Of a DNA stretch of 22,922 bases, positions 2,867 through 20,100 are shown piece by piece. The notes under the pieces are model-generated. The model saw only the letters and a list, made by a program, of their open reading frames with translations. It made no database searches and was not told the origin of the DNA. The DNA comes from Elsinoe ampelina (Eukaryota). The translations under genes and the position numbers were made by a program. The stretch is from NCBI GenBank assembly GCA_010093995.1, contig ML992506.1, positions 1,479,617-1,502,538 on the forward strand. Reading direction: 5' to 3'. The first letter of the stretch is position 1, and each line of letters begins with the position of its first letter.

Positions 2867-5709
2867 CTACTCAGTAACACTTTGTTCGTGCCTTGCGCTT
2901 GGCAGCGAACCGTCGCCGGAGCGGTGCTTTCCACCACGTCCTGCGGTGGCAGGCTGCAGCAGCGTCTTCTCGGCTTTTTGCATAACGATCTCGTTCCATT
3001 GAGTGCTACCAGTCCTGTGAGGACTTTTCAGAGGGTTTCGAATCCAGCGGTCCTCCTGGCGCTTTGGTGTCTTGTCTTCATCACTCGATTGGGCGGACTT
3101 CGCATTGTAGAGCGGTCTGACTGGTCCTTGATTGGCCAACGAAAGAAAATTGGCCATCGATAATGCTCTTCGAACGAAGCCTAGCAAATTGTCGCTCCTG
3201 GAGCCTTGCCGCAAACTGAAATCGAGGCGCTTGCCTCCCGTCGTGCCGGCTTCTACGTCTTCCATGGTCCAGATGTCGGAGTCGTTGACTATCGGCTCTG
3301 GCAGCTCGCGGCTTGGTCCGACTTGTCTTGTCTCGCGCATCTCGAAGCCGGCGAAATAGTAGAGGGCCTCTTGTTCGTCCACTGTCAACTTGACCGTTTC
3401 TGTCTTGGGATTGGGCCTTCCGCTGGATTTGTCGGGCTTTCCCTTCCCTTTCCTGGGCTTTTCGGCACTCGAAGGTGTATCTAATGGCCAGAGGCTCGGA
3501 ACTGACAGCGATAGGAATTTTGGTGCTCGCAAATTTGCCTTGCCTTTCATGCTGTTCGCAATCGCCTCGACATAACCTCTCGAGTGCTCAAGTGCCATAA
3601 ATTGATCTTTGTCGACAGTAGCCCTGACTGACCGGGAGAACTCGAGATCCACAGGACTTTTCGGCAGACAAGGAACGACGAGATCTTGTCGAAGGACTGC
3701 ATCGATCGAGGACAGCACAAGCCGTTTATTCCCTGGTATAGCGTAAGAATATTTTTCCATCCCTTGTTCATTCGAAGGCAATCCTAATCCTACTTCTACG
3801 TCCGAAGACTTTCGGACATCAAAGCATATTTCGAGATCGGGGTAGGAAGAGCGCCTCGAAGCGAAGTTCTCAGAATGAGGTGACGGTATCAGCTTGACAA
3901 TCAGTCGATCTTTGACGTTTGTCAAGGGCGCTATCTGGTCAGGCGATAGCTTGTCGAACCATGTTGAAACAGTAGGCAGTCTCGGTATTGTGGAAGAAAA
4001 GTATTGCTGGGCCTTCTCTGGCTCCTTTTTGGTCTGACTTTCTTCTAGCTGAGTGCCGAATCTGACACGCCAGAGTGATGGCTGTTGCGGTATCATCCAC
4101 ATTTTGGCGCGCGAGACGGGGTCGATGCGCTGCAACTGTTGCTGAAGTGCATGGTCCGATTGCTCCAGTAATTTGTGTACACGCGCATCTTGGTGTTTGA
4201 AATCCGAGACCTGTGCGACAAGTTGTTCTCCAGAGATGCTTTGACCGTTGCCGCTCGACTTGTCAAATTTCTCAGACGCTTCGTCATATCTACGGGCCTT
4301 TGTTACTTCACGCCTTAGTGAAAGATGTCGCAAGTGCAAAGGAACATCGGAGGGTTGGCACACAAGCTTTCCGTGCCCATCGTTTGGCTTGTCAATTGTC
4401 AGGTTGCAAGGCGTTTGCAAACCAAGCATCATGGTAACCATGCGCAGTGCTTCGTCAAGTGCAGCGCCCTTGAATGCTGCGACCCATATCTAGTGAGGTC
4501 AGCATGGTTGACCAAGTAGTGAGCTGCGAATAGCCTTACCATCGATCTCTGCATGCTGTGAGTCACGGAAGCGCCAGTCAGCAGCTCGATCTCTTGCTTT
4601 GCTCTTGGGGTAAACTTTGCGATCGTATCCTCGATAGAGGTAGGCAGTACATCCTTTAGCGGCTCCAGGTTGACTCGATGAACTAGACTGCTGCTGAAAG
4701 CCGACTGGAAATGCTGTGCGAGTGCTTCGGCTTCTTGACGTGGGCCTCGAACTCGCAAAGCTCCTCGCTTTGAATCGTGCTCCAGCCGAACACGTCTGAA
4801 GAAGACGCCCTTCCTCAGTATCCCGAACAAGTCTCTGGCAGCCCTGGTATGTAACATCTTCCATTGTGGCCGGGTCAGCAGAATTTCCAGCTCGCCTAAC
4901 GTGTCTTGCTCTTCAATGATTTGCAGATTCCAGGCATTTCGGAAAACCTGGTCGACCAAGTCCCATTTCTTGAATGGCAGCTTCTCAGGGGGTTCCTCAA
5001 GTTGCGTGGGGAGTGGCTCGTGGACACTAGTAGTCGACTTGAACCACGGGGTGACGGTGATGAAACTCGGGTTGTTGACTTCGTCTTTGGTATGCTTCCG
5101 TGATGTGGTCCGCGATTTGTCTAATATTGAAAGCTGCTGTTTATGTTTCTTCAAATACTTCTTGAGCTGCGGTGCAGTATGGGCGCCCGCCAAGGCCTTT
5201 TGTTTTGCGTTCCATACTGGTTTAATGAGCTCGCGCTCTTCCGGCCGGTGCTGTTCGATCGCGGCGAAGATTTCGGATTCTCGAGGGTTGGCCCCTTTCA
5301 CCAGCAGCCTCTCAATGTCCACAGTAGTTTCTGCCGCCTTTGACTCTGCATCGTCATCCTCCTCCACAGTTTCCCTAGAATCGTGCCGGGGTTCTGATGG
5401 ATCCTCCGCTACGTCTCGCAAGACGATGATGTCCGACTCTTGGTCAAGGGACTTGATCTTCAGGCGTTCGGCATCTGCTCGCTGGCGTCGACCTTTCTTG
5501 CCAATTAAGTTTTGATCAGGTCCCAAGTTCCTCCAATAGTACCCATGCGCATCTGCCTTAGCTGCATTTCGTGGTCGTGGAAGCTCAATTTCGGTCGACG
5601 CGAAGCGACGATTGGTTTTCGTCGAGAGTGCAAGGAGATCACGCCGTAGACGTTGATGGAACCTGCATCGTGCACAAGTAAATGCGCTTCGAGCGGCAGG
5701 TGCACTCAT
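2867..5709 (-). CDS. Mitochondrial inner-membrane-bound regulator SLS1-like protein, about 930 aa; exons 5709-4540 and 4489-2867
   Basis: Track ORFs 4429..5781 and 2867..4441 are joined in frame by a 50-nt intron at 4539-4490 (GTAAGG...GCTGAC...CTAG). The ATG at 5709 gives an Arg-rich presequence-like N-terminus (MSAPAARSAFTCARCRFHQRLRR). The motifs IIVLRD, HTAPQLKKYL and VFRNAWNLQIIEE..GELEI resemble fungal SLS-domain proteins as I recall them. Confidence 0.75.
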
Positions 5710-6017
5710 GTACAAATATCCGATGTGGGAGACAGCAGGTCGATCACCAGAAGAGGTGGCTCGAAGCAGAGAAGACGACACTCCCGAGTGACATTTTTCG
5801 CAGCTGTCGATCGCAGGTGGATCTCGCGCTACCCCAGATTACTTGGCAACCTTAATTTGTGGAGCGGCTGCAGCCTGTCATCATCCCGAGCCGCTTCCGT
5901 CCTGTCCCTCTCTGCCATCTCATCTTTGACTTTAACATCGTTGCATATGAACCCATTGCTATGCAAGTGGGACACGGGCCGTCAACCATGTTGCGATAAC
6001 AGAATCCTGTGACCAAC
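5710..6017. promoter_or_regulatory. Short divergent (probably bidirectional) promoter region between the SLS1-like and NT-C2 genes
   Basis: 308-bp gap between two head-to-head ATGs (5709 on minus, 6018 on plus). No specific binding site was identified. Confidence 0.5.
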
Positions 6018-7329
6018 ATGCAGTCTTTCGGTGAGTACTCTTTCTTCCATGTCTAGGAGACGCTCCTCTTTCTTTGAAACCCTGATCGGTGCTGATCTTC
6101 CAGTCCCTAAGAACAGGAGGGTATAATCGCATTCCTTCACGTCTTTCGAGCCCAACATCTGACACATCCTGCAGCCGAAGTTTGATCTAGTCTTCCGAGT
6201 GCACGATCTCAACAATGTTCCCCTCGTGTCCGGCACATCGCTAATCAAATGGCACTTGCCCTCTTCCACATCCGCGGAACATCGAGGCAAGACGCCCAAG
6301 TATACGATCAAAGATCACAAAGTCGTATATGACTATGAGAAGTCAATACAAGTACGACTGGTGATTGGCAAGGATGGGCACTTGCAAGAGTCGATCATAA
6401 ACTTTGAGGTATTGCAGGAGTACCAGTCATCTGGCCGGAGCGAGCGTATCACCCTTGGAATCATCAAGCTGAATCTGGCCGAGTATGTCGACACTGGACA
6501 ACATGATCAGACCGAAGGGGGTTCGATCACTCGGCGATACCTCATGCAAGAGAGCAAGATCAATAGTACCTTGAAGATTGAGATATCCATGAAGCATCTC
6601 GAAGGAGACAAGAACTATACCGCGTAAGCATTTCTCTGGAAACATCCACGAGTCTCCTACTGATACATTTGAAGCCCACCGCTCCGTACAGCGCCAGTAT
6701 TTGGCGGCATTGCTGGCATCATCTCTACCGAGGCCGCTGACGCCCCGGAAGAAGGAGTGCACATGCCGTCATTGTCCAGCAAGTCCCGTGAGAATGGCGA
6801 GCTACAAGATATGTATCGCCGCACTCTTGCAGCATCGTGGTCAGCTCAGCCGGGGGAACCACGAGCCGATGAGTGTATCGAAGACATCTTCGCTGGTGGC
6901 GATGGTTGGGGATCGCGAACACCCAAGAACGACTCTAGCAGAGCAGTCACGCCAACACAGAGCCGAATGAATATACGGGACGATAGTGATGACGAACATG
7001 GAGGTCTGAGCCGCGATAGTAGTACCAGCAACCTCTCCAGCGTTTTCGGTAGGCACAGGCACAAGTGGAGTCCGAGCAAGCATCACAGCAGGAAAGCCGC
7101 GTCGCCCAGCATCTTCGGCAGCAGGGATCTCAAGGAGAGACATTCGGCAAGCATGCTCAAGCCAGCTGGCGTTAGTGGGCGCACGAGTCTGGAACAGCAG
7201 GTGCGGAAGATGGAAAGGGCAGGAGGGGTAAATCTGGGCGCAAAGAAAAGAAGGCACGAGATCGACGAGTTTGACAATCCATACAAAGAAGATCTCAGAA
7301 GCTGGAGGATAAGGGGTAATGTGGTATGA
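6018..7329 (+). CDS. NT-C2 (EEIG1/EHBP1 N-terminal C2) domain protein, about 377 aa; exons 6018-6030, 6104-6120, 6175-6623, 6675-7329
   Basis: Three GT-AG introns (GTGAGT..CAG, GTATAA..CAG, GTAAGC..AAG) give one frame: MQSFVPKNRRPKFDLVFRVHDLNNVPLVSGTSLIKWHL...LGIIKLNLAEYV...RRYLMQESKINSTLKIEI...YTAPPLRTAPVFGGIAG...ADECIEDIFAGGDGW...EDLRSW. This matches the conserved fungal NT-C2 family. Confidence 0.9.
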
Positions 7330-7820
7330 TGCTATGAAAAACGAGTATCCATCTCACTTCCAGAACGAGTTGGTGTCGATGTTGGAAGCGATGCTGATGA
7401 TGCCTTTGCTGTCCTTTCCGGCAGTGACGTTTTTGATGGACTGGTTCCTGCATTCTGCCAAACTCCAATGTGGCGCTCGGACAACGGCCGGGGGGATTGC
7501 GGTGATCTGGTAGCTCATGACGGTTGGGAAGGGCTGAATCATGACAGCAGTACAAGCCTTTTCAGGCGCCTTCCATTCCGCGTCTCTCATCAAGACATGT
7601 ACGGCCCTTGACTCACTGCCGAACGTAGCACATGTTTCCCCCCTTCGTCCCTCTGGCACGACATCACTGAACTAGGAACCATCATCACCTGGACGGCTTC
7701 CTTTAGACAGGAGTGTATCGCCATCAAGAAATTAGGGTGAACAGCAGGATATCTTCTTTTTGAAGACGACATATGAAGTCGCCCCTTCGCATCAGAATAG
7801 GGTATGGAGGCAAGGGAAGA

Positions 7821-7874
7821 TACCATAGAAGGACTTGTTACCATAGAAGGACTTGTTACCATAGAAGGACTTGT
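7821..7874. repeat. Perfect tandem repeat, 18 bp x 3 (TACCATAGAAGGACTTGT)
   Basis: Three identical head-to-tail copies start at 7821, 7839 and 7857. Confidence 0.95.
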
Positions 7875-8005
7875 ATCAGCTTGCTGCTTAGACTTGTTGG
7901 GAAGCCGCCGACAACTTTGATACCAATGCTGGACTATGCGTTATCCTTCTGCCCTATTCTGCGCGGCTGTGCCATTCTCCTCTGATGTCGAGGAATAGTG
8001 TCCTT

Positions 8006-8801
8006 TCAGGATTCGCTAACCTGCGCTCTGTCCAACAATTCAACCAGCGTTTCTGTCTCCGCCTTTGCGTCCGAGCCACCCTGCTGTGCTTGAGCGATTG
8101 GTGGCGCTTCGAGAATGTTATATCCCTCGAGAGCCGAAAGAGCGACAGCGCTGTGGTCATGTCAGCGGATTCCTGAGCAAGTTCCGGTCATGAGCAAAAT
8201 AGACCTTGACATCACGTCGCGCTTCATCACTCTGGACAGCTCCCGCAAGTGAGCTTCGTACATATCTCTAGACCAATTCACTTGATCCCTGGTCATGTAA
8301 GTGACTCCGCATATCAGGGGGCGGGGAGTGGATACATCTTGTTGACGGCAAACAGACATGCCGTGTGCTCATTGACCTTTTCAAGCTGCGTGGAAGACTC
8401 TACAAATTCTGCGGAGCTCTGCGGGCTTGAGGTAGCGTCGAGGACGAATAGTGTCGTGTCGCATGGAGACGAGTCTTCAAATCATGAGCAGTGATGGATT
8501 GAGCGGCTAAGACCAATTCTCCTTCTTACCTGTGATCCGCCAAACCATAGATTTGGTTTCAAATCCTGCTTCGACGCCCTGTGCTTCCAAAAAAGGGGGT
8601 ATCTGTTCGTATCTCTTCGCTCCATGTTTCTCTAATTTACCAAGTAGTGACAGATCCATGCCCAGCTATCTCGTGTCAGTCCGGCTAAAAGTTGACAACC
8701 CGTCCTCTGAGCCGCACCTTATACACTAAGCATCCTTGCAGAGTCTTCTTTCCGGAACCAGAAGGCCCAACCAGCAGCAAGTCGTTAATTTGTCGGGTCA
8801 T
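8006..8801 (-). CDS. Degenerate eEF1A/HBS1-like G-domain-only protein (putative pseudo-GTPase), 195 aa; exons 8801-8718, 8665-8530, 8474-8336, 8288-8205, 8150-8006
   Basis: Four GT-AG introns (52, 55, 47, 54 nt) give one open frame: MTRQINDLLLVGPSGSGKKTLQGCLVYKLGMDLSLLGKLEK...GFETKSMVWRITDSSPCDTTLFVLDATS...LFAVNKMDQVNWSRDMYE...VALSALEGYNILE...TLVELLD. By eye it is colinear with eEF1A ([33 protein letters not shown]...FETPKY...AINKMD..WS...PISGWNGDNMLE...TLLEAID). The intron 4 donor (GTCTAT) is the weakest splice site. Confidence 0.8.
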
Positions 8802-9040
8802 TTTGAGCCTGGTGACAAGGAGCAGCACTGAAGAGCTGTAATAAGAAGCAAAGAAAGTGGAGGGAAGCTAAGATGATAAATTGGCGTCGAACGTGGGGCG
8901 GACAGATCATTTCACGTGATGAGCGCCGGATCAAATATTCTAGAAGGTAGCAGAAGGTGGTTCATGAAACTTCCTATACGTTTTGCGTTATAACATGATG
9001 ATCATGTATTTGCCTGGTCTATTGAACACCCATTCCTCGA

Positions 9041-12000
9041 TCAATCATTCTTGCCGACCAGACTCCGCACCTCCGCAAGAATTTCTGTATTTCCATGTGC
9101 TTCTGCAACAGTGACCATCGCGGAGACGTCATGCGAACTGAGAGGCCCATGGCTTCGGCTGATAAGCTGTCTCACAATGTCGACGGCGCCGACTTTCACG
9201 GCATGGAACAATGCTGTGTGGCCATCGAGATCTCTGGAATGCACATCCACGCCAGTGTGATCCAGGAGCATCTTGACCATGGCTGTTTGGCCCCACAATA
9301 CAGCAATAGACAAGAGCGTACGGCCACTGTAGTCAGTACAAGCCAGCGTCTCAGCAGACGCATACTGCAGGAGCACTTCCAAACAAGCAGGGAATCCTGG
9401 AGGCTCAAATGTCCATGCTAGTGGGGACCAGCCACTTATATCTCGAGAGTTCGCAGTGTCCGGCGCCCGGGCAAGTATGACCCGCAGCATGTCTACATTT
9501 CCCAGAGAGGCAGCCAAGGAAGCTGCGTTGCGGCCGCTAGTATTCCGATGGAGGATATCGACAGTCGGGTGACTCGTCAATATCTTAACAACATCTGTTC
9601 GACCCTCGACGACAGCGCGTAGCAACGGGGAATTGCCTTCACTGTCAACATTGTTGACGTCGATTTCCACTCGTCTTAGCAACATCTTGACTGTCCTTGT
9701 AGGACCAAATGCACAAGCCCATGAGAGTGCGTTCCATCCCGTATTGTCCTTTCGACTGACATCAACTTTAGAACAGCTCAGGAATGGATCAACGGCTCTG
9801 TTTGAACGATCCGTGCAAGCAAGGAAGAACGGTGAGACTCCTCGCGGATCGGTAATATTTGCGTCCACTCTTTCGTCCTTGAGCAGGATTGAGATTATCT
9901 CAGTGTGGCTTCTAGCGGCTGCAGTGGCAAGGGGAGTGCGTCCATCAGCCCCAGGCCTGTTGGGATCCGCTCTGTCTCCGCAGAGCAGGATGCTGACCGT
10001 GTCCCGGTGGCCCCTGTCTACGGCTACGGCTAGGGCAGAGCCGTAACAAGTGGTGCTCTCATTGACTCGCCCATGTGGGGACTCCTCGAGATGCCATGAT
10101 AAGGCCTGCAGACAAGTTGTGCAGTTGTTCTGGGCACTCCAATAAATAGCGGATGCAATATCGTAGTCACCGAATGCAGCCATCAGAGTAGGTATCATGT
10201 GAGAGTGGCCGAAGTATGCTGCCATGGTGAGCTTGTCCGGATCAGGTGGAAACTGGCTTCCATCTATCGCTTGCATTCGCACATAGTGATACCACGACCG
10301 AGACTCTTGGGAGTACAGTGTCAAGGCGAGGGCGCTGAGGGCATCGAACTCGGGCTCTGTGCATTTTGAGAAGTGAAGCGTCCAGTACCGAGCGGCATAA
10401 TCAAAGCAGTCATCGTCCTTCGCATACATATACTGTTCCTCCCGCACGCGGTCGGCTGGTTCCCGGAATAGCATTTCCATGTCGCTGAGATCGAAGTTAC
10501 CGGAATATTGGTACTTCTCACTGGCGCAAGATCTCCGCGCTGCGTCTGAACAATCACTGTCGGGCGTGATCGAGCTGGTTCGACTGTTCGAGTCTTCCTC
10601 CAGCAACAGATACCTCATGGTTGCGGCGGCAATGAGCTGATGTGATCCAGGATACGTGATGAATGGGCGGTCATGGGGGCACAGAAAGGTATGCCAGTTA
10701 TTCAGGAGATATTCTCTCAACGTAGCGTGTATCAAGCTGATATTCGATCGTCCAGATTTTGGCACTGTGACGAGAGCACCCAGAATCATGACGGCGGATT
10801 GCGGCCCGGAAACAGGGTATTCTTGCTGCAAATCTCTGCGCGATATCATTGAATGGTCAACGCTGCAAAGGGCATTGATCTCGAATGCGTTCAGAGGTCT
10901 GCCAGAAGTCATCAGGATCTTTAGCATTTTTCTGGCAGTGTCCTGATCCTCGATGGAGATGGCGTCTATCATTCGGGCGTAGAATTCGTTCAAGTCTGCG
11001 GGAATAGAGGTGGTGAGCGTCTCCAAATCTTTGATCCGGAATGAACGCTGCGATTGCAATCGCTTGACCGCGAGAGAAGCCCATAGGAACGAGTTGCCGG
11101 CTTGTTTGCGAAGCCTGTCGTAGACCGCATCGTGCACTTGAGTGTTCTGCGCAGACTTTGGAATGATCTGCTCGAGGGCCCGCTTCAGGTACGTTGCAAT
11201 GTCGTCCTCGATATTGTGGGAACGAAGGTCGAAACGGCGGTATGTACAGAGCGACGCAGCTTGGCCCTCCTCGAAAGCAAGAGTATGAATGGGACGGCTA
11301 CTGAGCAAAATCTGCACCTGTTCAGCCGCAGGGTTATTCAAGAGCCCAATCAACCACTCGAACAGGTACTGCTGAGCTTCGCGGTCGCATTCGTCCAGTC
11401 CGTCGATGACCAGCCAAACTTGGCCGGTCCGCTGATGACACAGGAGATCAGTGAGGAGGGCTTGTAAGTGATCCGTATTTTTCAAGAATCCCATTCCGTA
11501 CGACACGAGGGCTTTCCTCACTCGGGGCATCAAACGGACTCTCTCCATGACAAGCTGACAAATCAAGCCTCTCAATAGGTCCACAATACTCGTGCCTTGT
11601 GTGTCCCTAGCGCGACCACTGATGAAATACTGACAGATGAGCCGTGGAGAATCTCGGGCATTCAACTGTTTCACCATGTCGTTCAACAAGACAGACTTCC
11701 CTGAACCTGGTTCACCCGTGATATGCAGCATGCGATAGCGGCCGCTTCTCCATGATCCGAAATCGTCGTCTTGGTTAATCCATTCCAGAGTTCCGGCTGC
11801 CTTCCGAGATATGCCTGGATCTGACCCGTAGAGATAATCTGGACGCATTGCTTCGTAGCTTAGCTCATCTTCCGGGCCTGGTTCCCAATGATTAGCATGG
11901 ACAGCCAGCACGTTTAGGTGTCCATACTGAAACCTGCTGGATACCCTACCGGGCTCATCAAACCCCGAGTGAGCCTGCTCCTGTCATTGGCGATCAGGAT

Positions 12001-13436
12001 TCGTTCAGGGCAATGCAATCATAGGGTACCTTTGGAAGTGATCGCAGTCAGCTGTCGCATCTGATCAGCTGAGACTTCTCGGCCTGGCTGGGTCTCACAC
12101 CGTCTCACCTGTGCCGGGTATCTGTCTGAGCTGTGAAGGGCGAGACTGGGCTTTATGAGCCATACGACCGGTGCCACTCACAGAGAGCTTACCGTGAACG
12201 ATCCCGTGATGCCCGGGGAATGGGGATCTGTAGAATTCAATTCATGAACTATGCAAAATCCTCAATGTACACACTTTGTTTCCTATGCATGTTCGCCACA
12301 CAATCCCTTACTCGTAGCATCTGACTGGTATGCTTCAAGTACCCTTCCGTGGCAGCTTCTATTGTGCCGATTTTGTCGTGCTCATCGAGAGATATACCTT
12401 GCAGGCCTTGCTCGACGTTGAAGCGAAAGTATCGGCGTTCATCGTACTGCTTTGCCCACCTCGCGATGAACTTTCTTTCCGTGTTGTCCGTTTCGGTCGC
12501 AATCTGCACCATGGTCTCTGTGAGGAATTTCAGAAGGCCATCTCTGAATGCTTGCTTTCCTGGATTGCCGGTGCCTATTGAGATGAAACATTTGACCAAT
12601 GGTTTGAGCTCGCCAGTCTCCGGGCACCATATGTTTCCTGCTTCGCCTTCAACTTCATCCACAGGATTGTTAGCACCGAAGCCGCCATCCGCAAATGTAC
12701 GATTGTTTATGACGACGGGCGCGAAGAACGTTGTGGCTGCTGCGGTCGCCAGGCAGGCTTTGCGAATCGTCGTGTGGATAGATGACTCGTGCGGCAGTTT
12801 GTAGTCCCGTAACCGAACCATATCTTTCGTTGCTCTGTCTATCGTGCAGACAAAACTGCAAGTGTTATCCTCTGCATAGTCTCAGCCTATCAAAGAACTC
12901 TGCTCACGTTCTACAACCACGCTCTTCTCCGTCTTCGAGAAGGGCATCGTCAGATACACCTTGGCTTGTCATGACTTCTTGTATGGCTCGATCTAGTGTG
13001 GCAGAGTCGAACATTGGCTTGATGCCACCGAAGAACCCAATCCGGGACTTGTGCAGTGGTTTGGCGAAGACTGAAGCGGCGAGCTTAGTATAGGCGCCAA
13101 TGCATTCATCGACATCCATTTGCAAACGACCGAGCATGATGGCGATCAGCCTGTATCACATCGAATCAGTCATTGTTCCTCGACTTGTGATGATACGTAC
13201 CCTCCTGTGCTGGTACCTCCGATCAAATCAAACACCTCGCAGGGTTTCACGGCGGACAAGTTGTGCTGGCGCCGTTGGTGGTTCAGTCTGTCCATGATGC
13301 CCTTCAAGATGAACAATGATGATAGGCCGCGCACACCCCCGCCATCCAGCGACAAAAGGCAAAGGCCAGTGCTGTCCAGCGCATCGCTTCTGTCGCAGCT
13401 GCTCCCTCCTGAAGACTGGATGTTGGCTTCTGCCAT
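9041..13436 (-). CDS. Patatin-like phospholipase - NACHT - ankyrin repeat NLR, about 1347 aa; exons 13436-13201, 13150-12908, 12855-12275, 12227-12193, 12145-12109, 12051-12030, 11980-11928, 11877-9041
   Basis: Patatin motifs LSLDGGGVRG, GGTSTGG (catalytic Ser) and FADGG (catalytic Asp). NACHT Walker A GEPGSGKS and Walker B LVIDGLDEC, plus ILLSSRP and FLWASL. Roughly ten C-terminal ankyrin repeats (e.g. GRTPLATAA, GNSPLLRAV, GHTALFHAV). Seven GT-AG introns of 47-57 nt join all parts in frame. The domains are secure; the single-gene linkage through micro-exons is a manual prediction. Confidence 0.82.
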
Positions 13437-14390
13437 GGTTTGACGTTCTGCACAACAACCGGCGGAACTGTGATTGATACCCAGCGAAAATTTATGATCT
13501 TACGGTCCGAAAACAAGAGCGCCTATTGAGCCCTCTGATGGCGCCCTGCAGCCCGTGCTACAATCGGTTCAATCAGCTACGAGGTGTAAGCGCTGGCTTC
13601 GACCAATCCGAGCGTGCCATGTGAACTACCATTTATTCTTCAGATGAATGTTCATTCTCCGGCGGCACGGTTCCCCCCACCCAAGTTGAACCCCCACTCG
13701 GCCCGCTGTTGAATGAGCGCCATGGACGGACGGCATTGCGATGTAGTCGGCAAACGCCAGGCGACGAATCAGATGAGCGCTGAGATTTGTCCAACCGCGT
13801 TCCGACCGCGTAGAAAGAAGTCTCGTTGGGTCTTACCAGAGACTTGAATGATCGTGGATGGGGTGTATCTGGCGCTGGGGCGATGTCGTCCGACAGGATT
13901 ACACAAGCATGTCCCCAGGATCTGCCGAAAGTGGTCTCGCGCGTTGATTGCACTGGAAGTGCCTTTTTGGTCCTGATTGCCTTAACGCACGCAACGCCGT
14001 CGCGCGCCGTCCCGATCGCCCGAAGTGATTACAAATACTGTACCCCGCATTCATCATTGCGGTCCAAGTACTGTAACTTAGTGAGAGGCCTAGCACGACA
14101 GCACAGCGGTCTCGAACAGTGAAGATTAGGTTGCGAAATGGTGAACAACAACTCCGTTCAGAGCCTACACGCATCTAGCGTAATGGCTGAACAACGCACA
14201 ATGATTACTAGAACCTTAGCATTGCAATCCATATCTGAAGCGCCAGAAATCGTGACACCTCTACGCCAGATGTCCAACCAGAGCTTGTTTGGGTCCCCCC
14301 ATCAGCTTTGTGCCTCCGAGGTACGACTGACCACGTTAAGATCTTAGCACAGACTCAGCCCGCGACTCAATGCTGGCGAGAAAAGCATGG

Positions 14391-15347
14391 TCATGCGTGC
14401 CCAATTTTCCAGTCGCCGCCAAGAGCAGCACACCTCCCTCCGATCATCCCTCTTGTACGGTAACGCAAACCCTCGGACTCAATCCCGTCCCAACCATCCT
14501 TTCCCCACCTCGTCCCCACCATGTACTGATGCGGAAAGCTCAACCCCAGCCACACCAGCTCGCTCTTCATATACAGTAACGTCGCCCCGATAGCATCAAG
14601 AAACACAAGGTCATTCTCCCCAGTCCTCTTCTGGAGATCTGTCAACATAAGCTGACCCTGCAAAGCTAGCTCCCTATTCTCAATCTCCTTCGGATCCAAG
14701 TCCCAGTCTCGCGGCCCCTTCCGCGTGCCGGCCCAGCAGTTCAGATCGTAATTTGAGCCCGTAATGTTACCCAATTCAGTACGAGCGGTGAGGATGCCCA
14801 CGTCCTCGCGGTCTTGAGCGTGACGCAGCATCCGTGTGACCAGTCCGGCGTCGATGCGGTAGATGTCGGCGTCCATCCAGATGATGTGCTCCTCTCCGCG
14901 TAAGGTCTGTAGCATGAGGAAGTTGCGGAGCTTGGCCATTTCTGAGCGGCGAGCTGTTTGAGCTTCCTCATCATGGCGGTGCTCGCGCTCGATCTCGTCG
15001 CTGGGGAGGTAGCCTGGGTGGCGGAAGATGGTGACGCGGCTGTAGTTGTGGTTGTAGGCACTGTGTTTGTAGAGTTCATATTCGGAGTCGGAGCTGGTGA
15101 GGAGGCCGAGAGAGATGGAGGATGGATCGTGTTGGAATTTCATGAGCTGGTGCATATCGTCGATGGTGCGCGGGCGGTCATCATCGTCGAGACTGTCGGC
15201 GAAGGAGCTCTCGTCTTTGGTCATGACCAGCCAGAGGAGTTTGGGCTGTGCATTGGCGAGGCCGGTGTCATATCTGAGGGTGTCATTGCGCAGGATGACT
15301 TCACTTGTGAGCCGTCCATTGCCGCTTGCTTCTCTGAATAAAGACGT
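14391..15347 (-). CDS. Glycosyltransferase family 62 (Anp1/Mnn9/Van1-like); 5' end unresolved, possibly degenerate
   Basis: Motifs ISLGLLTS, RRSEMAKLRNFLMLQTL, HIIWMDADI (DxD), YDLNCW, LDAIGATLLY, GLSFP and GIESEGL. The frame stays open upstream of the ATG at 15224 up to a TGA at 15348-15350, with no in-frame ATG or membrane anchor. A possible acceptor (TTCAG) ends at 15334. Confidence 0.72.
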   Translation of the reverse strand, partial: TSLFREASGNGRLTSEVILRNDTLRYDTGLANAQPKLLWLVMTKDESSFADSLDDDDRPRTIDDMHQLMKFQHDPSSISLGLLTSSDSEYELYKHSAYNHNYSRVTIFRHPGYLPSDEIEREHRHDEEAQTARRSEMAKLRNFLMLQTLRGEEHIIWMDADIYRIDAGLVTRMLRHAQDREDVGILTARTELGNITGSNYDLNCWAGTRKGPRDWDLDPKEIENRELALQGQLMLTDLQKRTGENDLVFLDAIGATLLYMKSELVWLGLSFPHQYMVGTRWGKDGWDGIESEGLRYRTRGMIGGRCAALGGDWKIGHA

Positions 15348-15766
15348 TCAATCATTGGATTGGTGGGCAAACATGCAGACTCCAACCTCCGCCATCTTCA
15401 CGAAAATTCCTCAATCAAAAGAACACGCATAACAAAGCTCCATCCCGAAAGTGTCCTAGCGGTGTGAGTCACGCTGGCCAGGAAGATGTGCGGCGCAGAC
15501 GTTACGGCATAGATACCCAGGGGTAGCGTCAGGAGGTGCTGCCTCAGAAATCTTGTACGTAGAACCCAGCATCTAACGAGCAGGCTCGCACGGCGATGGT
15601 TCTCTGAGCAACGGCCAGCGGAAAACATCTCAGCTTAAGATTGAGGCGGCGGCCCAAAGGTGTGAAGAGGGAAAAGAGGTTCTTGGTGCACAGCACGATC
15701 GGCCTCCTTGCGAGCGTGTGTACGCTAAAACTGACTAACATATTGTTTGAACACGCGTCTTTGAGC

Positions 15767-15885
15767 AGATACGGCCACAGACAGTTGAAAGCAAGGCATC
15801 CCGTCAGATCTGCCATATTTAAGCAACTGATCGCCTGATTAGTAATGCGGTGGGTGACCACGTGTGAATCCCAGGTGCTGTATCT
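15767..15885 (+). rRNA. 5S rRNA gene (dispersed copy)
   Basis: 119 nt, AGATACGGCCACAG...GCATCCCGTCAGATCTGCC..TAAGC..TTAGTA..GGTGGGTGACCAC..GAATCCCAGGTGCTGTATCT. The 5' AGATACGGC pairs with the 3' GCTGTATCT (helix I), the typical 5S motifs are present, and T-runs follow. Confidence 0.95.
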
Positions 15886-15896
15886 TTTGCTTTTTT
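15885..15896 (+). terminator. RNA polymerase III terminator (T4 plus T6 runs) of the 5S gene
   Basis: TTTTGCTTTTTT directly at the 5S 3' end. Confidence 0.8.
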
Positions 15897-17189
15897 GCCC
15901 CTTCGTCCTGCGGAACTGCATGTTGAATGGAATATTCGCTCCAAGGAATGGTGTTTTTTTTTTTTACACAAGACTTGGTGGATGACGAGTTGGCTGCGAC
16001 CGGAAAGAAATGTCAACTTGATCTCTTCTCTCCTGCCTGCTCCTTATCTCCTTGTTAGCGAGATCTGCTTATACCAACAGTGTTACGTTCATTCGAGTCT
16101 CGTCATGCAGCCGGAGTGCCCGTAAAGTCATAGGTGTTTCCCACATCTCCTGATTCCAAACAATGCCTCCCATTTTGTGTGCCTTTATCATCACCATGAT
16201 CACCGCCACTGACACAACCCTCCAGAGTCAAACGGGACCTTAATATAGTAGAGATCACGCTGCATGGGGTGTTTTGGGCTTCTTTCTGGTAACTTGCTTG
16301 GACGCTCGACTCTTGCCGAGCTCCGCCGCGCAGGCCTGAAACCACGACCGGCCAACTACAGCCCTCCCGAAAATGACTGGCTTTACCACAGCCTACGACT
16401 GCTAAGCGGCACAGCGCTTTTCGCCATGGCTGGCGCCTTAGGTCACTCACGTGCAGTGATCTCTTGTCGGGTCACAATTGCAGCTCGCAGCTGATTTACG
16501 CATAGAGTACGACAATGACATAGTCGTTACGTATTCTTGCATTGCAAGGTCGTTTCCAAGTCTCTTACGAGGACACTCGATTTTCTGCTCGGCATAAGTC
16601 GTCTATCAGGTGCGCAGACACTGCTGAAGGGGTCATGAACTTCTGCACTTGAGTACAGGAATTTCGTGACGGTGGAGACTGCAACTAGAGAGCTCTTGTT
16701 ACGAATGGACATAACGGAGATCGGCACACGTAGTGAGCTGAGTGGATCTGAGATTTGTCGTCATTGAGCGGGCTTCGACGTCGAAGGGTGGCGTACGGTA
16801 ATGTGATCACGGTCGCCCAGAGCTCGTCTCGTCGGCGACCTCACAGTATGCCTTGAGAGGTTGGGATGAGATCTACAACTTCTTCTGTCAGGCTCACCGA
16901 TGCAACACCTCACCTGGAAAGGCCGCAGAGCAGAGGCTGGGCACTGCTGACTTCTCGTGAACAGCGGCCAAAGCTCAGCTTCATAAAATCATGGTTCGAA
17001 GGTTCGACTTCTGCCCAATTTTTTGGGTCGCCACCTCACAATCGGGAATCCAGGACACATCAGACTCAAGCAATCGATTCACCCACCTTGGGGCTGCGGC
17101 GTGTGTTGTTGGGGAGAATGCCATACACAAGGGCAACGTGGTCAAATGAGCATTTGATCGGTTGTGATTACGGATCGTATTAAGCTGAA

Positions 17190-20100
17190 TCATGACGAAC
17201 AAGATGTAGCTCGGCTCTTCAAACTTCCCATGAATCCGAGCCGGCCTTTGAAGGCGCCGCTCAATGCATCGATTTCCCGGGTAGACATGTTTCTCCTTGC
17301 ACTTGCCGCATTTTTGAAGCCCTGACTTCCCCTGATGCCTGTCAGAGCACCAAGGATGGCAAAGATAGCACTCTCCGGCTCATTTACCACCTCATAGGTA
17401 GTGTAAGCGGCGCTTCCTGTGGCTGTGATAACCTTCAGCACTGTCGCAAGAGCTGTCAGGCCTGCCAGACTCGCTGCGTGACCTGCGACAGGGATGAAAA
17501 ATAAGAGTGCAGTAATGAAGCCGAGTATCATCTGCTTCCTTTTCTCCTCCTCGATATCCTCCGCGGTTTCCACGACCTGCTCCATCCCCTTGATAGCTTC
17601 CTCAACCATGAAGACAGGGATCTCTGCTCCATCGACAACATCTGCGGGGTCGACATTGAGAAGTCCTATTTCGGCAGCGGAGAAGGAAGTATCAAGCCCG
17701 CTCTCAATAGTGCGCAACGATTGGAGACCTTTCGAGATACTCTCTTTGGGATCTGGGACTTGTACGCCATTCGCTGGGACGGGATAACCAACGTGGTTGA
17801 CCATGCACTGTTCATTGCGACCGCAAAAGCCACCTTGGCGGTATCTTTCACCGAGGACGTACCAATTCGCAGGTATGCCTTTCTCGGCAATGGCGGATTC
17901 AAATCCGGCTCTGTCTCGTAGCGTCCACCGAATCGTGCCTTGGAGCTCGGACGGGTCGTTGTTGCATACAACCACTTCCCCATACTTGGTGCAGTCGAAG
18001 TATCGAGGCGCGTTCTGAGCCAGAAACGTGTCGAGTTGCGTCTGAAGACTTCCGCGAATATAATCTGCGTAAACTTTGAACTTGCTGTCATAACCATTGT
18101 TCATAAGCGTGGCATAACGATCCAGGGCTCTTCTCAATGCGATTAAAAGGCCCCCAATAAGATACTGGCTCATGCATCTGCCGGGTATTGTATCCCTTTG
18201 CAAATCGAGGACTTCTAAAGTCTCAAAGCGCGATGGACAGGGCGGCGGTGAGGGTGGGATTGTAGGCGCAACTCGACTGCTGCCTTCCGATTGTAGGTCT
18301 ACAGCCCAGTCTGACACCCCACCAAAATTCAAACCCTGGTATTTCTTGACTCGATTGCTTTTGTTGAGATCGCTCATGTAAGCTACCCATTCAGTGTTGT
18401 TATAGACCAGTACCTGAGAGTCAGCGGGACCGAAATAGAGCTGCCGAGCTGATGGATTAGTAGCGTAGATTTCGTCAATTTCGGCCTGAGCAATATAGCC
18501 AGCTGTCTGTGTACAGCTACCAGGTAATGCTCCAGATGCAGGTCCAGTAAAGGGGCAGAAATTATCCGTGCAACCTGCCTGTGCCATTTTAAATGATCGC
18601 CCGTAGCTAGAGATGCCCACAATGACTTTGTTACTCGGCATACCGGCCTTAGTAATCATGACTAGTGCATTCATTGTCTCAGTCATGTTGATATGCGAAC
18701 GAAGACAGTTTCCAGTAGGACATCCAGACGATGCCCATTTGTTCCCGTAATCCCATTGGCCATGGAGATCATAGGTCATGTAAATCATGTAGTTGATGAC
18801 TGGCGCAAGGTCTTTGATAGGATGGAAACCAAGAAGATACCAATACGAAGCTGGCGCGGCAATCGAAACTGATTTCTCGGGAGGTAGGAAAGATCGGACC
18901 ATTTGAAGGAAGCGTAAGTAATTCGCACCATCATTCTTGCCGCCTGCAGGAATACCCGGAATATCAGGAGCACTGTAGCACGATCAGCTTTGTGAAGAAG
19001 CGTTGGATGTGCTATAACACCTACCCAGGGTATTCCCAATCGAAATCAACTCCATCCAGGTTGTGAGCAAGGACAAAGCTAGACACTTGCCGTGCGAATT
19101 CCAAGCGGTTAGCATCAGTGACACCCTCCCGAAAGATCGGATATGTATCGACTTCGGTAGAGAATGACCAGCCACCAAACGAAATTATTCTTTTGATACC
19201 TGACAATTGTTTGAAATCTTCAAACTGCCATGGATACTGTGAAATATCAACTCGGAAGTCGGGGGTAATATCGGCAAAGGCATAGTGGACATGTGTGTAT
19301 TTCGTCTTATCGATTTGATTTGGTGTCATCCGTAGACATCCTCGATCGTAATTCCAGGCAGAGAAGTAAGCGACACTTATGAATTCTGAGGGTGGGTTTC
19401 CATTGTTTACAATATCCATCCCACAATTCGAGATACACCCATTTTGGCCTGGGAGTGAAGTTCCAGGATTTCCAGAGGCCGCAGTCGACCTTGTACAAAA
19501 TTCAGAGGTTGTACCACATTGTCCCCATTTGTTGCAGCATGCGTTCAACTTGCAAGGATTTAGCGTTGATAAGTCGAGTCCGAGCGTGGGTAAATTCGGG
19601 TTGGTCGTTCCTGGAACTTGTGGACCACATACCGCATTCGATACCGGAGCTGGCATTGGGGGATATCCTTCACTAAGACACATACGTATGCCGAGTAGAA
19701 GATTGTCGCAGCCAGTCCAGGCCCAGGTCTTTGTATTGAAACGCAACAGCTCTTCGATCGTGAGGGAGTTAGAGGCTGCTATCTTGGCGCAGTAGTCTCC
19801 GGAGACCACTGTGTATGGCGCGCAGTCGCCGTTTTGATTCGGGCGGGGTCTGATGTCTGGTAATGTACCGCTAGAGCAGCACACGGGTTGTCCAACGGCC
19901 AGTGTCGCACAAAGATTGTTCTTCGTGTTGTACGACATGAATTGGTTGCCTGAGATGCCGCATGCAGAAGCCAAAGAAGCACAACTGTCCCCGGATACCA
20001 CACGTATGATACGGCAGTCTGCCCGAGGCAGTAAACGCAGCGGGACTGAGCTGTTCGCATTGTTCGAGTTGCTGCTGGAAGGAGTTTCGAGATCTGGCGA

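What the first reader, a model, noticed from the sequence alone, without database searches (positions are those of the whole stretch)
8006..13436. Candidate guard/decoy pair: patatin-NLR immediately upstream of a pseudo-eEF1A
Seen: the patatin-NACHT-ANK gene ends at 9041 and the pseudo-eEF1A ATG is at 8801, on the same strand 239 bp apart. Known: in Neurospora plp-1/sec-9 and Podospora het-z, a patatin-domain NLR is encoded next to the essential-protein gene it monitors and triggers cell death through its phospholipase. eEF1A is a common target of antagonist effectors and toxins (e.g. Legionella Lgt glucosyltransferases, ternatin, nannocystin). Inference, speculative: the dead eEF1A domain may be a decoy or allorecognition partner sensed by the ankyrin repeats, which would be an undescribed fungal immune module. 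The adjacency could also be chance.
Basis: inference. Interest (0 to 1): 0.75.

Follow-up and report, generated by a model that had tools for sequence, protein, structure and literature searches.

The report
Fungal NLR paired with eEF1A-derived pseudo-GTPase
A fungal immune-type receptor gene sits next to a small, expressed, stripped-down copy of the GTP-binding domain of translation factor eEF1A, and a similar pairing recurs in several distantly related moulds, which points to an undescribed receptor-partner unit whose trigger is unknown.

Summary
A 195-aa gene starts 239 bp after the stop of a patatin-NACHT-ankyrin NLR, on the same strand. Its four introns are spliced in 4 of 4 runs. It belongs to a Pezizomycotina family of stand-alone eEF1A-like G domains (49 clusters). 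All 55 aligned members lack switch I, switch II and Ser53; most keep the P-loop lysine, NKMD and G5.

The pairing recurs. An ankyrin-ended NLR lies one or two accessions from the family gene in 4 of 5 informative genera (Fusarium, Rhynchosporium, Hyaloscypha, Cercospora; miss: Dactylellina), against about 1% background. On a metagenome contig the ankyrin gene 85 bp away best matches this very NLR. The N-terminal effector varies (patatin, SesB-like lipase, none), so the link is to the NACHT-ankyrin part.

The named antagonists do not fit: the Lgt target Ser53 and domain III are gone. The four runs show no divergent haplotypes. The full-length fusion needs a 49-nt intron that three runs retain. 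Binding is untested. Best reading: a dedicated guard/decoy-type partner (0.45); linked function of some kind about 0.8.

The parts
8006..8801 (-). Gene for a 195-aa eEF1A-derived pseudo-GTPase; exons 8801-8718, 8665-8530, 8474-8336, 8288-8205, 8150-8006
   Evidence: Model equals annotated P0002; four introns spliced in 4 of 4 runs; AlphaFold2 model pLDDT 91.7, top five Foldseek hits are yeast eEF1A
8718..8801 (-). Exon 1 with altered P-loop GPSGSGKKT (Lys in place of the Mg-binding Ser/Thr)
   Evidence: Sequence; at eEF1A Ser21 the family has K in 22, A in 13 and S in 3 of 51 rows
8289..8350 (-). G4 motif NKMD, split by intron 3 (8335-8289)
   Evidence: same intron position and phase in L036
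8802..9040 (.). [quoted passage not shown]
9041..13436 (-). Patatin-NACHT-ankyrin NLR gene, 1347 aa when fully spliced; exons 13436-13201, 13150-12908, 12855-12275, 12227-12193, 12145-12109, 12051-12030, 11980-11928, 11877-9041; a 5' UTR intron at about 13577-13629
12275..13436 (-). Patatin-like phospholipase domain with DGGGVRG (31), GTSTG (74-78) and DGG (216)
   Evidence: Pfam PF01734; motif positions; the catalytic roles of these motifs are recalled
11981..12029 (-). 49-nt GT-AG intron; retained it gives a 392-aa patatin-only product, removed it gives the full NLR
   Evidence: inferred from contig piece lengths, the joint itself was not displayed
11294..11794 (-). NACHT (NPHP3_N-type) ATPase with Walker A GEPGSGKS and Walker B LVIDGLDEC
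9044..10402 (-). Post-NACHT helical region and ankyrin-repeat sensor
   Evidence: Pfam Ank; 30% identical over 410 aa to the ankyrin ORF next to the family gene in L036

Best explanation
The two genes form a conserved two-gene immune module. The small gene is an old, single-origin copy of the eEF1A G domain that lost domains II and III, both switch regions and the catalytic His, so it cannot translate or cycle GTP. It has become the dedicated partner of one subfamily of NACHT-ankyrin NLRs. Most likely the ankyrin region binds it and reads its state, in guard or decoy fashion. When a foreign factor aimed at eEF1A-like G domains, or an ill-fitting allele, changes or removes it, the NACHT domain oligomerises and the N-terminal lipase (patatin here, SesB-like elsewhere) kills the cell. 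Shown: gene structure, expression, fold, family-wide loss of the switches, recurrent adjacency to ankyrin-ended NLRs, intact patatin and Walker motifs. Inferred: binding, the direction of control, the trigger, and cell death.
For: Adjacency by accession in the NLR list of PMC9815663 (S1 Table): CZR46611 beside CZR46612 and KLP06831 beside KLP06830 (Fusarium, SesB-like-NACHT-ANK), CZT41634 beside CZT41635 (Rhynchosporium, short N-terminus, ANK), PMD46365 beside PMD46366 (Hyaloscypha, SesB-like, ANK), PPJ52932 two from PPJ52930 (Cercospora, SesB-like, ANK). All five NLRs end in ANK. Background: 5 other NLRs in the 500 surrounding accessions; binomial p 1e-5 for 4 of 5 genera, 2e-4 if all 15 queried neighbourhoods are counted. 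Physical check: on L036 the family gene and an ankyrin ORF lie tail to tail 85 bp apart, and the ORF's best match among 31 in this genome is this NLR (149 bits, next 75). The pairing survives a change of orientation and of effector domain. Controls: no family gene in the 9.5-kb regions of the two other patatin-NACHT loci or within 1.5 kb of 9 other ankyrin matches. All 4 introns match L036 in position and phase. Known fungal NLRs respond to small endogenous proteins encoded nearby (PMC10197012, PMC12881547, passages), including a lipase-NACHT-ANK case, Bcvic1/Bcvic2.
Against: Dactylellina haptotyla, whose member P0003 is the sister of P0002 in the tree (97/82, long branches), has no listed NLR nearer than 54 accessions. 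L034/L035, one locus with about 490 bp upstream and 440 bp downstream, show no NLR sequence in those short flanks. Nine of 15 queried neighbourhoods gave no row and could not be judged. A decoy should keep the surface of its model, yet identity to eEF1A is only 46 of 192 aligned residues and the known target sites are gone. The best-kept positions are the nucleotide pocket and core, which suits a ligand sensor or scaffold as well. Three of four runs retain the intron that separates patatin from NACHT-ANK. Accession neighbours are a proxy for physical neighbours and give no orientation.
Confidence: 0.45

Rival explanations
1. The small protein is not bait but a guanine-nucleotide sensor or structural cofactor of the NLR. 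It binds GDP, GTP or a guanine-derived signal without hydrolysis and licenses or tunes NLR assembly.
For: G4 (N 41, K 47, M 45 of 52; D 39 of 47), G5 (S192 39 of 43) and the P-loop G19/K20 (43 and 41 of 51) are among the best-kept positions, while the switches are deleted in 55 of 55. Precedents: EF-Tu as a structural part of bacterial Avs7 (PMC13581612, passages); a PII-like nucleotide-sensor fold as partner at Podospora het-B (PMC10890737, abstract).
Against: Avs7 binds EF-Tu through domains II and III, which are absent here. The Mg-binding Ser/Thr is lost in 48 of 51 rows. Conserved pocket residues may simply hold the fold together.
Confidence: 0.2
2. The pair is a heterokaryon-incompatibility locus: matched alleles are tolerated and mismatched ones from another strain trigger death, with no present role against antagonists.
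For: Same layout as plp-1/sec-9, het-z, Bcvic1/Bcvic2 and A. fumigatus hetE (passages). The family diverges fast (mean column identity 24%).
Against: Four runs from three studies, laid at 80% likeness, show no variant in the small gene and one substitution in the NLR (11121, Y655S, outside the ankyrin region). Fusarium and Colletotrichum members cluster at 90% or more across species. The sample is small, the runs were chosen by near identity, and a divergent allele would be missed.
Confidence: 0.13
3. The two genes travel together as cargo of accessory DNA without acting on each other; the small protein has a job of its own, such as a scaffold in translation or stress control.
For: Patchy spread: no close relative of P0002 was found among 463 candidates, none of the 27 E. 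australis NLRs listed is patatin-labelled, and the family tree does not follow the classes. The locus lies between a housekeeping block and a chitinase/LysM cluster.
Against: The flanking genes differ between this window and L036, the orientation is reversed, and only these two genes are shared. Members are only about 25-35% identical, so the link is old.
Confidence: 0.17
4. The adjacency is chance.
For: Every NLR has two neighbours; this genome has 46 NACHT loci over the cut-off. One genus is a clear miss.
Against: 4 of 5 genera within two accessions at about 1% background, all ankyrin-ended, and the best-hit relation on L036.
Confidence: 0.03

Closest known systems
Neurospora plp-1/sec-9 and Podospora het-z (seen in review passages PMC10197012 and PMC12881547; the primary paper was not held)
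   Same: Patatin-headed NLR with a neighbouring small partner gene; death depends on the patatin and P-loop motifs there, and both motifs are intact here.
   Different: PLP-1 is NB-ARC-TPR, this is NACHT-ANK (20 patatin-ANK rows against 244 patatin-NB-ARC-TPR rows in the held part of the table). SEC-9 is the essential gene itself; here the partner is a degenerate extra copy. No allelic series was seen.
Botrytis Bcvic1/Bcvic2 (10.1101/2022.04.03.486892, passages) and Aspergillus fumigatus hetE (PMC11138114, passages)
   Same: Lipase/esterase-NACHT-ankyrin NLR next to a partner gene; this matches the SesB-like versions of the present pair.
   Different: The partners are a syntaxin and a Boi1 homologue, working trafficking proteins. 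Those loci have strongly divergent alleles.
Podospora het-B, Bh/Bp (PMC10890737, abstract)
   Same: A cell-death gene paired with a small protein derived from a nucleotide-binding fold.
   Different: Bh is a HET-lectin protein, not an NLR; Bp is PII-like.
Bacterial Avs7 with EF-Tu (PMC13581612, passages)
   Same: A STAND receptor that uses an elongation factor of the EF-Tu/eEF1A family.
   Different: It uses the intact host factor through domains II and III; no dedicated gene. Here only domain I remains and it has its own gene.
eEF1A, Hbs1, eRF3 (translational GTPases)
   Same: Same G-domain fold; the family profile scores this genome's eEF1A 120 bits, Hbs1 91, eRF3 51, mitochondrial EF-Tu 13.
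   Different: No domains II and III, no switch I or II, no catalytic His95.
Plant decoy pseudokinases such as ZED1/RKS1 with ZAR1 (recalled, from no call)
   Same: A catalytically dead copy of a host enzyme serving an NLR as a separate protein.
   Different: Different kingdom, fold and NLR class; those are proven by experiment.

Membership tests
Functional eEF1A | Three domains, about 460 aa | tested here: not met
   195 aa; 47 of 49 hits are 223 aa or shorter, longest 361
Functional eEF1A | G1 GxxxxGK[S/T] | tested here: not met
   GPSGSGKK; Ser kept in 3 of 51 rows
Functional eEF1A | Switch I with G2 Thr72; G3 DxxG with His95 (motif roles recalled) | tested here: not met
   eEF1A 70-77 and 93-104 are gaps in 55 of 55 rows
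eEF1A-derived G domain | Fold and closest GTPase are eEF1A | tested here: met
   Foldseek ranks 1-5 yeast eEF1A; profile scores; G4 and G5 kept. In the tree the family is set apart from all four GTPases (100/100), so the tree alone does not name the donor.
PseudoGTPase | No GTP hydrolysis; nucleotide binding present or absent | not testable with these tools
   Predicted from the missing motifs only
Fungal tripartite NLR | Effector, NACHT or NB-ARC, and repeat domain in one frame | tested here: met
   1347-aa frame with Patatin, NPHP3_N/NACHT and Ank; six of seven introns seen as joints, the seventh inferred for run X4 only
PLP-1/HET-Z1 type | Patatin domain with catalytic motifs | tested here: met
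   DGGGVRG, GTSTG, DGG
PLP-1/HET-Z1 type | NB-ARC and TPR domains; neighbour is sec-9 | tested here: not met
   NACHT and ANK; the neighbour is GTP_EFTU-like
het/vic allorecognition locus | Divergent, linked alleles under balancing selection | tested here: inconclusive
   One substitution in the pair across 4 runs; sample small and biased to near-identical holders
het/vic allorecognition locus | Cell death on co-expression of unlike alleles | not testable with these tools
   Needs a bench test
Guard/decoy pair | Conserved genetic linkage of NLR and partner | tested here: met
   4 of 5 informative genera plus L036
Guard/decoy pair | Physical contact between sensor domain and partner | not tested
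   No complex model was obtained
Guard/decoy pair | Decoy keeps the site attacked on the real target | tested here: not met
   For the antagonists named: Ser53 kept in 0 of 55, domain 3 absent. Other sites (helix 25-43, F80-P83, NKMD) are kept and may be targets of unknown factors.
Integrated-decoy NLR | Decoy fused into the NLR | tested here: not met
   Separate frames and no listed bridging contig; no hit longer than 361 aa among 49 in a search without length limit

The most novel reading that the evidence does not exclude
Filamentous ascomycetes carry an undescribed family of stand-alone eEF1A pseudo-GTPases that evolved as dedicated baits or nucleotide sensors for NACHT-ankyrin NLRs. This would be a fungal decoy encoded beside, not inside, its receptor, and would show that fungi watch attacks on the translation machinery. 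The effector end is exchangeable, and retention of one 49-nt intron may set how much full receptor is made.
Probability: 0.4. Interest if true: 0.88.

Novelty: new variant of a known kind. Interest (0 to 1): 0.72.

Why it matters
What fungal NLRs sense outside self/non-self recognition is an open question; the reviews read here (PMC10197012, PMC12881547, passages) call the guard model unproven. In the known pairs the partner is a working housekeeping protein, so guarding cannot be told from co-option. Here the partner is a dead copy of an essential translation factor, kept beside the same kind of NLR in three fungal classes. It has no evident housekeeping role left, so it gives a small, deletable, two-gene system in which the guard, decoy and sensor models make different predictions. 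It also names a pseudo-GTPase family that databases label as EF-1 alpha, ADP-ribosylation factor or hypothetical protein.

Tried and rejected
Complex prediction of the ankyrin region with the small protein: no verdict, the job was not folded; this says nothing for or against binding. Single exons found no GTP_EFTU match. Word-indexed protein searches with P0001 and P0002 returned only P0002; the family appeared with the full HMMER search. Broad alignments A1 and A2 were too variable for locus scans. The one metagenome scan (A7, Leotiomycete and Pleosporales members) gave 3 loci from 33 candidates; only L036 had useful flanks. Viral contigs: A7 gave 49 loci, whose best-scoring ORFs are 337-860 aa (47 of 49 at 458-495 aa), so full-length GTPases and not family members; A5 gave none of 180 candidates. 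Supplements of PMC12258605 held no match for three JGI id stems; 5 of 17 files were not searched and the largest table cannot be read. Neighbour tables of PMC9815663 held none of six member accessions; 3 of 11 files were not searched. The S1 Table is held to about 73% of its size. Nine neighbourhoods gave no row: four KAF (no KAF row in the held file), CCT7252/3 (no CCT72 row), KLP1779 (no KLP177/178 row), EDU5147 and KAA861549 (that species' rows start at PWO) and QGI6817 (coverage not checked). No RNA holder was on record; the lay showed all four runs spliced. Contig depths differ between patatin and NACHT-ANK parts in three runs but cannot rank parts of a gene, so they were not used. The ESM Atlas gave only generic GTP_EFTU and ankyrin clusters. 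Earlier findings by sequence, relatives and words were empty. Rejected: pseudogene (open frame, spliced, family-wide shared deletions); assembly or annotation fragment of eEF1A (own stop and introns, real gene elsewhere); read-through fusion with the NLR; decoy for Lgt, ternatin or nannocystin. Rows left out: the tree used 42 family rows of 140 aa or more, with P0044 and P0049 trimmed at the N-terminus; the conservation count used 55 rows and left out P0044, P0049, P0066 and the extra cluster members.


Full report
Observation. Both genes lie on the minus strand of contig C6 of G000. The small gene has five exons and encodes 195 aa; the database holds the same sequence as P0002, labelled Elsinoe ampelina BDZ85DRAFT_262301. 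Its ATG is 239 bp after the NLR stop. Four runs from three studies were laid on 3500-22900; all four carry all four introns of the small gene as GT-AG joints. The listed NLR contigs end at 8956-9004 and those of the small gene begin at 8807-8822, so the two seem to be separate transcripts (153 pieces were not shown).

The NLR. Pfam finds Patatin, NPHP3_N/NACHT and ankyrin repeats. An open frame of 1347 aa joins them through eight exons, with the patatin motifs and both Walker motifs intact. Six introns are listed joints in 4 of 4 runs. The 49-nt intron 12029-11981 is not among the 15 joints shown. A 4204-letter contig of X6 runs from patatin to the ankyrin end with 197 letters between two mapped pieces, which equals the retained form (148 if spliced). 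X3 and X10 fit retention too. In X4 a contig ends two letters past the acceptor and a joint has a 23-letter side, which fits splicing. Retention gives a 392-aa patatin-only product. So the full receptor is probably one isoform among several; this is inferred from lengths.

The small protein. A search of 1.84 billion representatives found 49 clusters at E up to 0.001; 47 are 223 aa or shorter and none is over 361 aa. Of 30 looked up, 25 carry species names, all filamentous ascomycetes: Dactylellina, Patellaria, Cercospora, Alternaria, Pyrenophora, Fusarium, Colletotrichum, Podospora, Xylaria, Cadophora, Rhynchosporium, Hyaloscypha and others. The family profile scores this genome's eEF1A highest (120 bits; Hbs1 91, eRF3 51, EF-Tu 13), and a branch of 100/100 sets the family apart from those GTPases. 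The AlphaFold2 model is confident (pLDDT 91.7) and its first five PDB matches are yeast eEF1A. Against eEF1A, 55 of 55 rows lack residues 70-77 and 93-104 (switch I, switch II, His95) and 54 of 55 lack 50-53; none keeps Ser53. The P-loop Gly and Lys, NKMD and the G5 Ser are kept in about 80-90% of rows, while the Mg-binding Ser21 is kept in 3 of 51. The four introns of the window gene match those of the L036 member in position and phase. This is an old, single-origin, expressed pseudo-GTPase family, not a decayed pseudogene. The genome has one copy by two protein searches; true eEF1A lies 1.15 Mb away.

Does the pairing recur? The metagenome scan gave three loci. L036 (8.7 kb) holds a member 86-91% identical in its first two exons to the Hyaloscypha protein P0067, and 85 bp beyond its stop, on the other strand, the end of an ankyrin ORF that runs off the contig. 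Searched against G000, that ORF's best of 31 matches is this NLR, over residues 1-407, at 149 bits against 75 for the next. L034 and L035 overlap, have under 500 bp of flank on each side, and show no NLR sequence. I then looked up accessions around 15 family accessions in the S1 Table of PMC9815663, a list of fungal NLRs, held to about 73%. Five had an NLR within two numbers: F. proliferatum, F. fujikuroi, R. secalis and H. variabilis at one, C. berteroae at two. All five end in ankyrin repeats; four start with a SesB-like lipase and one has a short unannotated N-terminus. D. haptotyla is well covered (110 rows) and is a miss, nearest NLR 54 numbers away. Nine could not be judged. H. variabilis also has a NACHT gene three numbers on, as L036 has behind two glycoside hydrolases; this supports reading accessions as gene order, and it means L036 and H. 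variabilis count as one lineage. Background is 19-104 NLRs per 10,000 accessions and 5 others in the 500 nearest. Four of five genera within two numbers gives p about 1e-5 at a rate of 0.04; counting all 15 queries gives 2e-4. These genera may share one ancestral pairing, so the number measures retention, not independent origins. Within G000, the two other patatin-NACHT loci and nine other ankyrin matches have no family gene in the fetched flanks.

How it may work. What stays constant is the small G domain and the NACHT-ankyrin half; orientation, effector domain and flanking genes change. That points to a link at the sensor end. In described fungal systems an NLR responds to a small endogenous protein encoded nearby, and for PLP-1 death needs the patatin and P-loop motifs (PMC10197012 and PMC12881547, passages). 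I therefore favour a guard or decoy-type partner (0.45). Low identity to eEF1A (46 of 192) also counts against close mimicry. The kept guanine pocket allows a sensor or cofactor role (0.2), with Avs7/EF-Tu and het-B as loose precedents. Pure allorecognition (0.13) finds no support in four runs, which differ from the window by one NLR substitution, Y655S, but those runs were selected for near identity. Co-travel without interaction (0.17) is not excluded, since the family is patchy and its tree does not follow the classes. Chance is unlikely (0.03). Binding and cell death were not tested.

Novelty. NLR-plus-neighbour modules are known in fungi. I found no description of this family or pairing: five full-text searches returned no paper, one returned 26 papers of which the 15 listed concern plant immunity or effectors of plant pests by title, and the word 'elongation' is absent from six papers on fungal NLRs or incompatibility. 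The library lacks most subscription journals, and unread supplements may list such neighbours. Papers seen: passages of PMC9815663, PMC12258605, PMC10197012, PMC12881547, PMC13449251, PMC11138114, PMC13581612, PMC5119991 and 10.1101/2022.04.03.486892; supplement rows of PMC9815663 and PMC12258605; abstract and outline of PMC10890737; search listing only for PMC3245282. GTPase and patatin motif roles, class assignments of some genera, and the plant ZED1/RKS1 comparison are recalled.

Verdict. Real, expressed, and paired beyond chance in three fungal classes; a new variant of a known kind, with an unusual partner and an unproven mechanism. Interest 0.72.

Noticed in passing
L012 (G000:C6, about 332.7 kb), fourth intron of the real eEF1A gene: The frame YYVTVIDAPG is open only if this 52-nt intron starts with GA and ends with AG: a rare GA-AG intron or a sequence error.
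   Followed up: no
P0049: A G-domain-only protein much closer to eEF1A (98/86 with it in the tree) that already shows a deletion near residues 48-53 and a decayed switch II; perhaps a second, younger origin of the same design. Species and neighbours unknown.
   Followed up: partly
window 12249-12274: Retention of NLR intron 3 would end the patatin frame cleanly at 361 aa; introns 4, 5 and 6 also give short patatin-only products (369, 381, 392 aa). Stand-alone patatin het genes exist in A. fumigatus.
   Followed up: partly
window 17190-22037: GH18 chitinase with LysM and chitin-binding domains, facing away from a small secreted-looking ORF at 21507-22037 with no Pfam match; the layout recalls killer-toxin-like chitinase clusters (recalled).
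   Followed up: no
window 15767-15886 (+): A dispersed 5S rRNA gene (Rfam RF00001, 85.3 bits).
   Followed up: yes
window 7812-7870: An 18-nt unit repeated about three times between the NT-C2 gene and the small gene; run X3 lacks one unit. One X3 contig joins the 3' ends of these two convergent genes.
   Followed up: no
window 22500-22760: Many other letters and loose ends in three runs, which suggests a short multi-copy element; ARAGORN and Rfam found nothing there.
   Followed up: partly
L036:2-1699 (+): A second NACHT-type gene with DUF7791 lies about 5 kb upstream of the family gene.
   Followed up: partly
L047-L095: 49 viral contigs encode eEF1A/eRF3-like GTPases, 47 in frames of 458-495 aa; not members of the short family.
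   Followed up: partly
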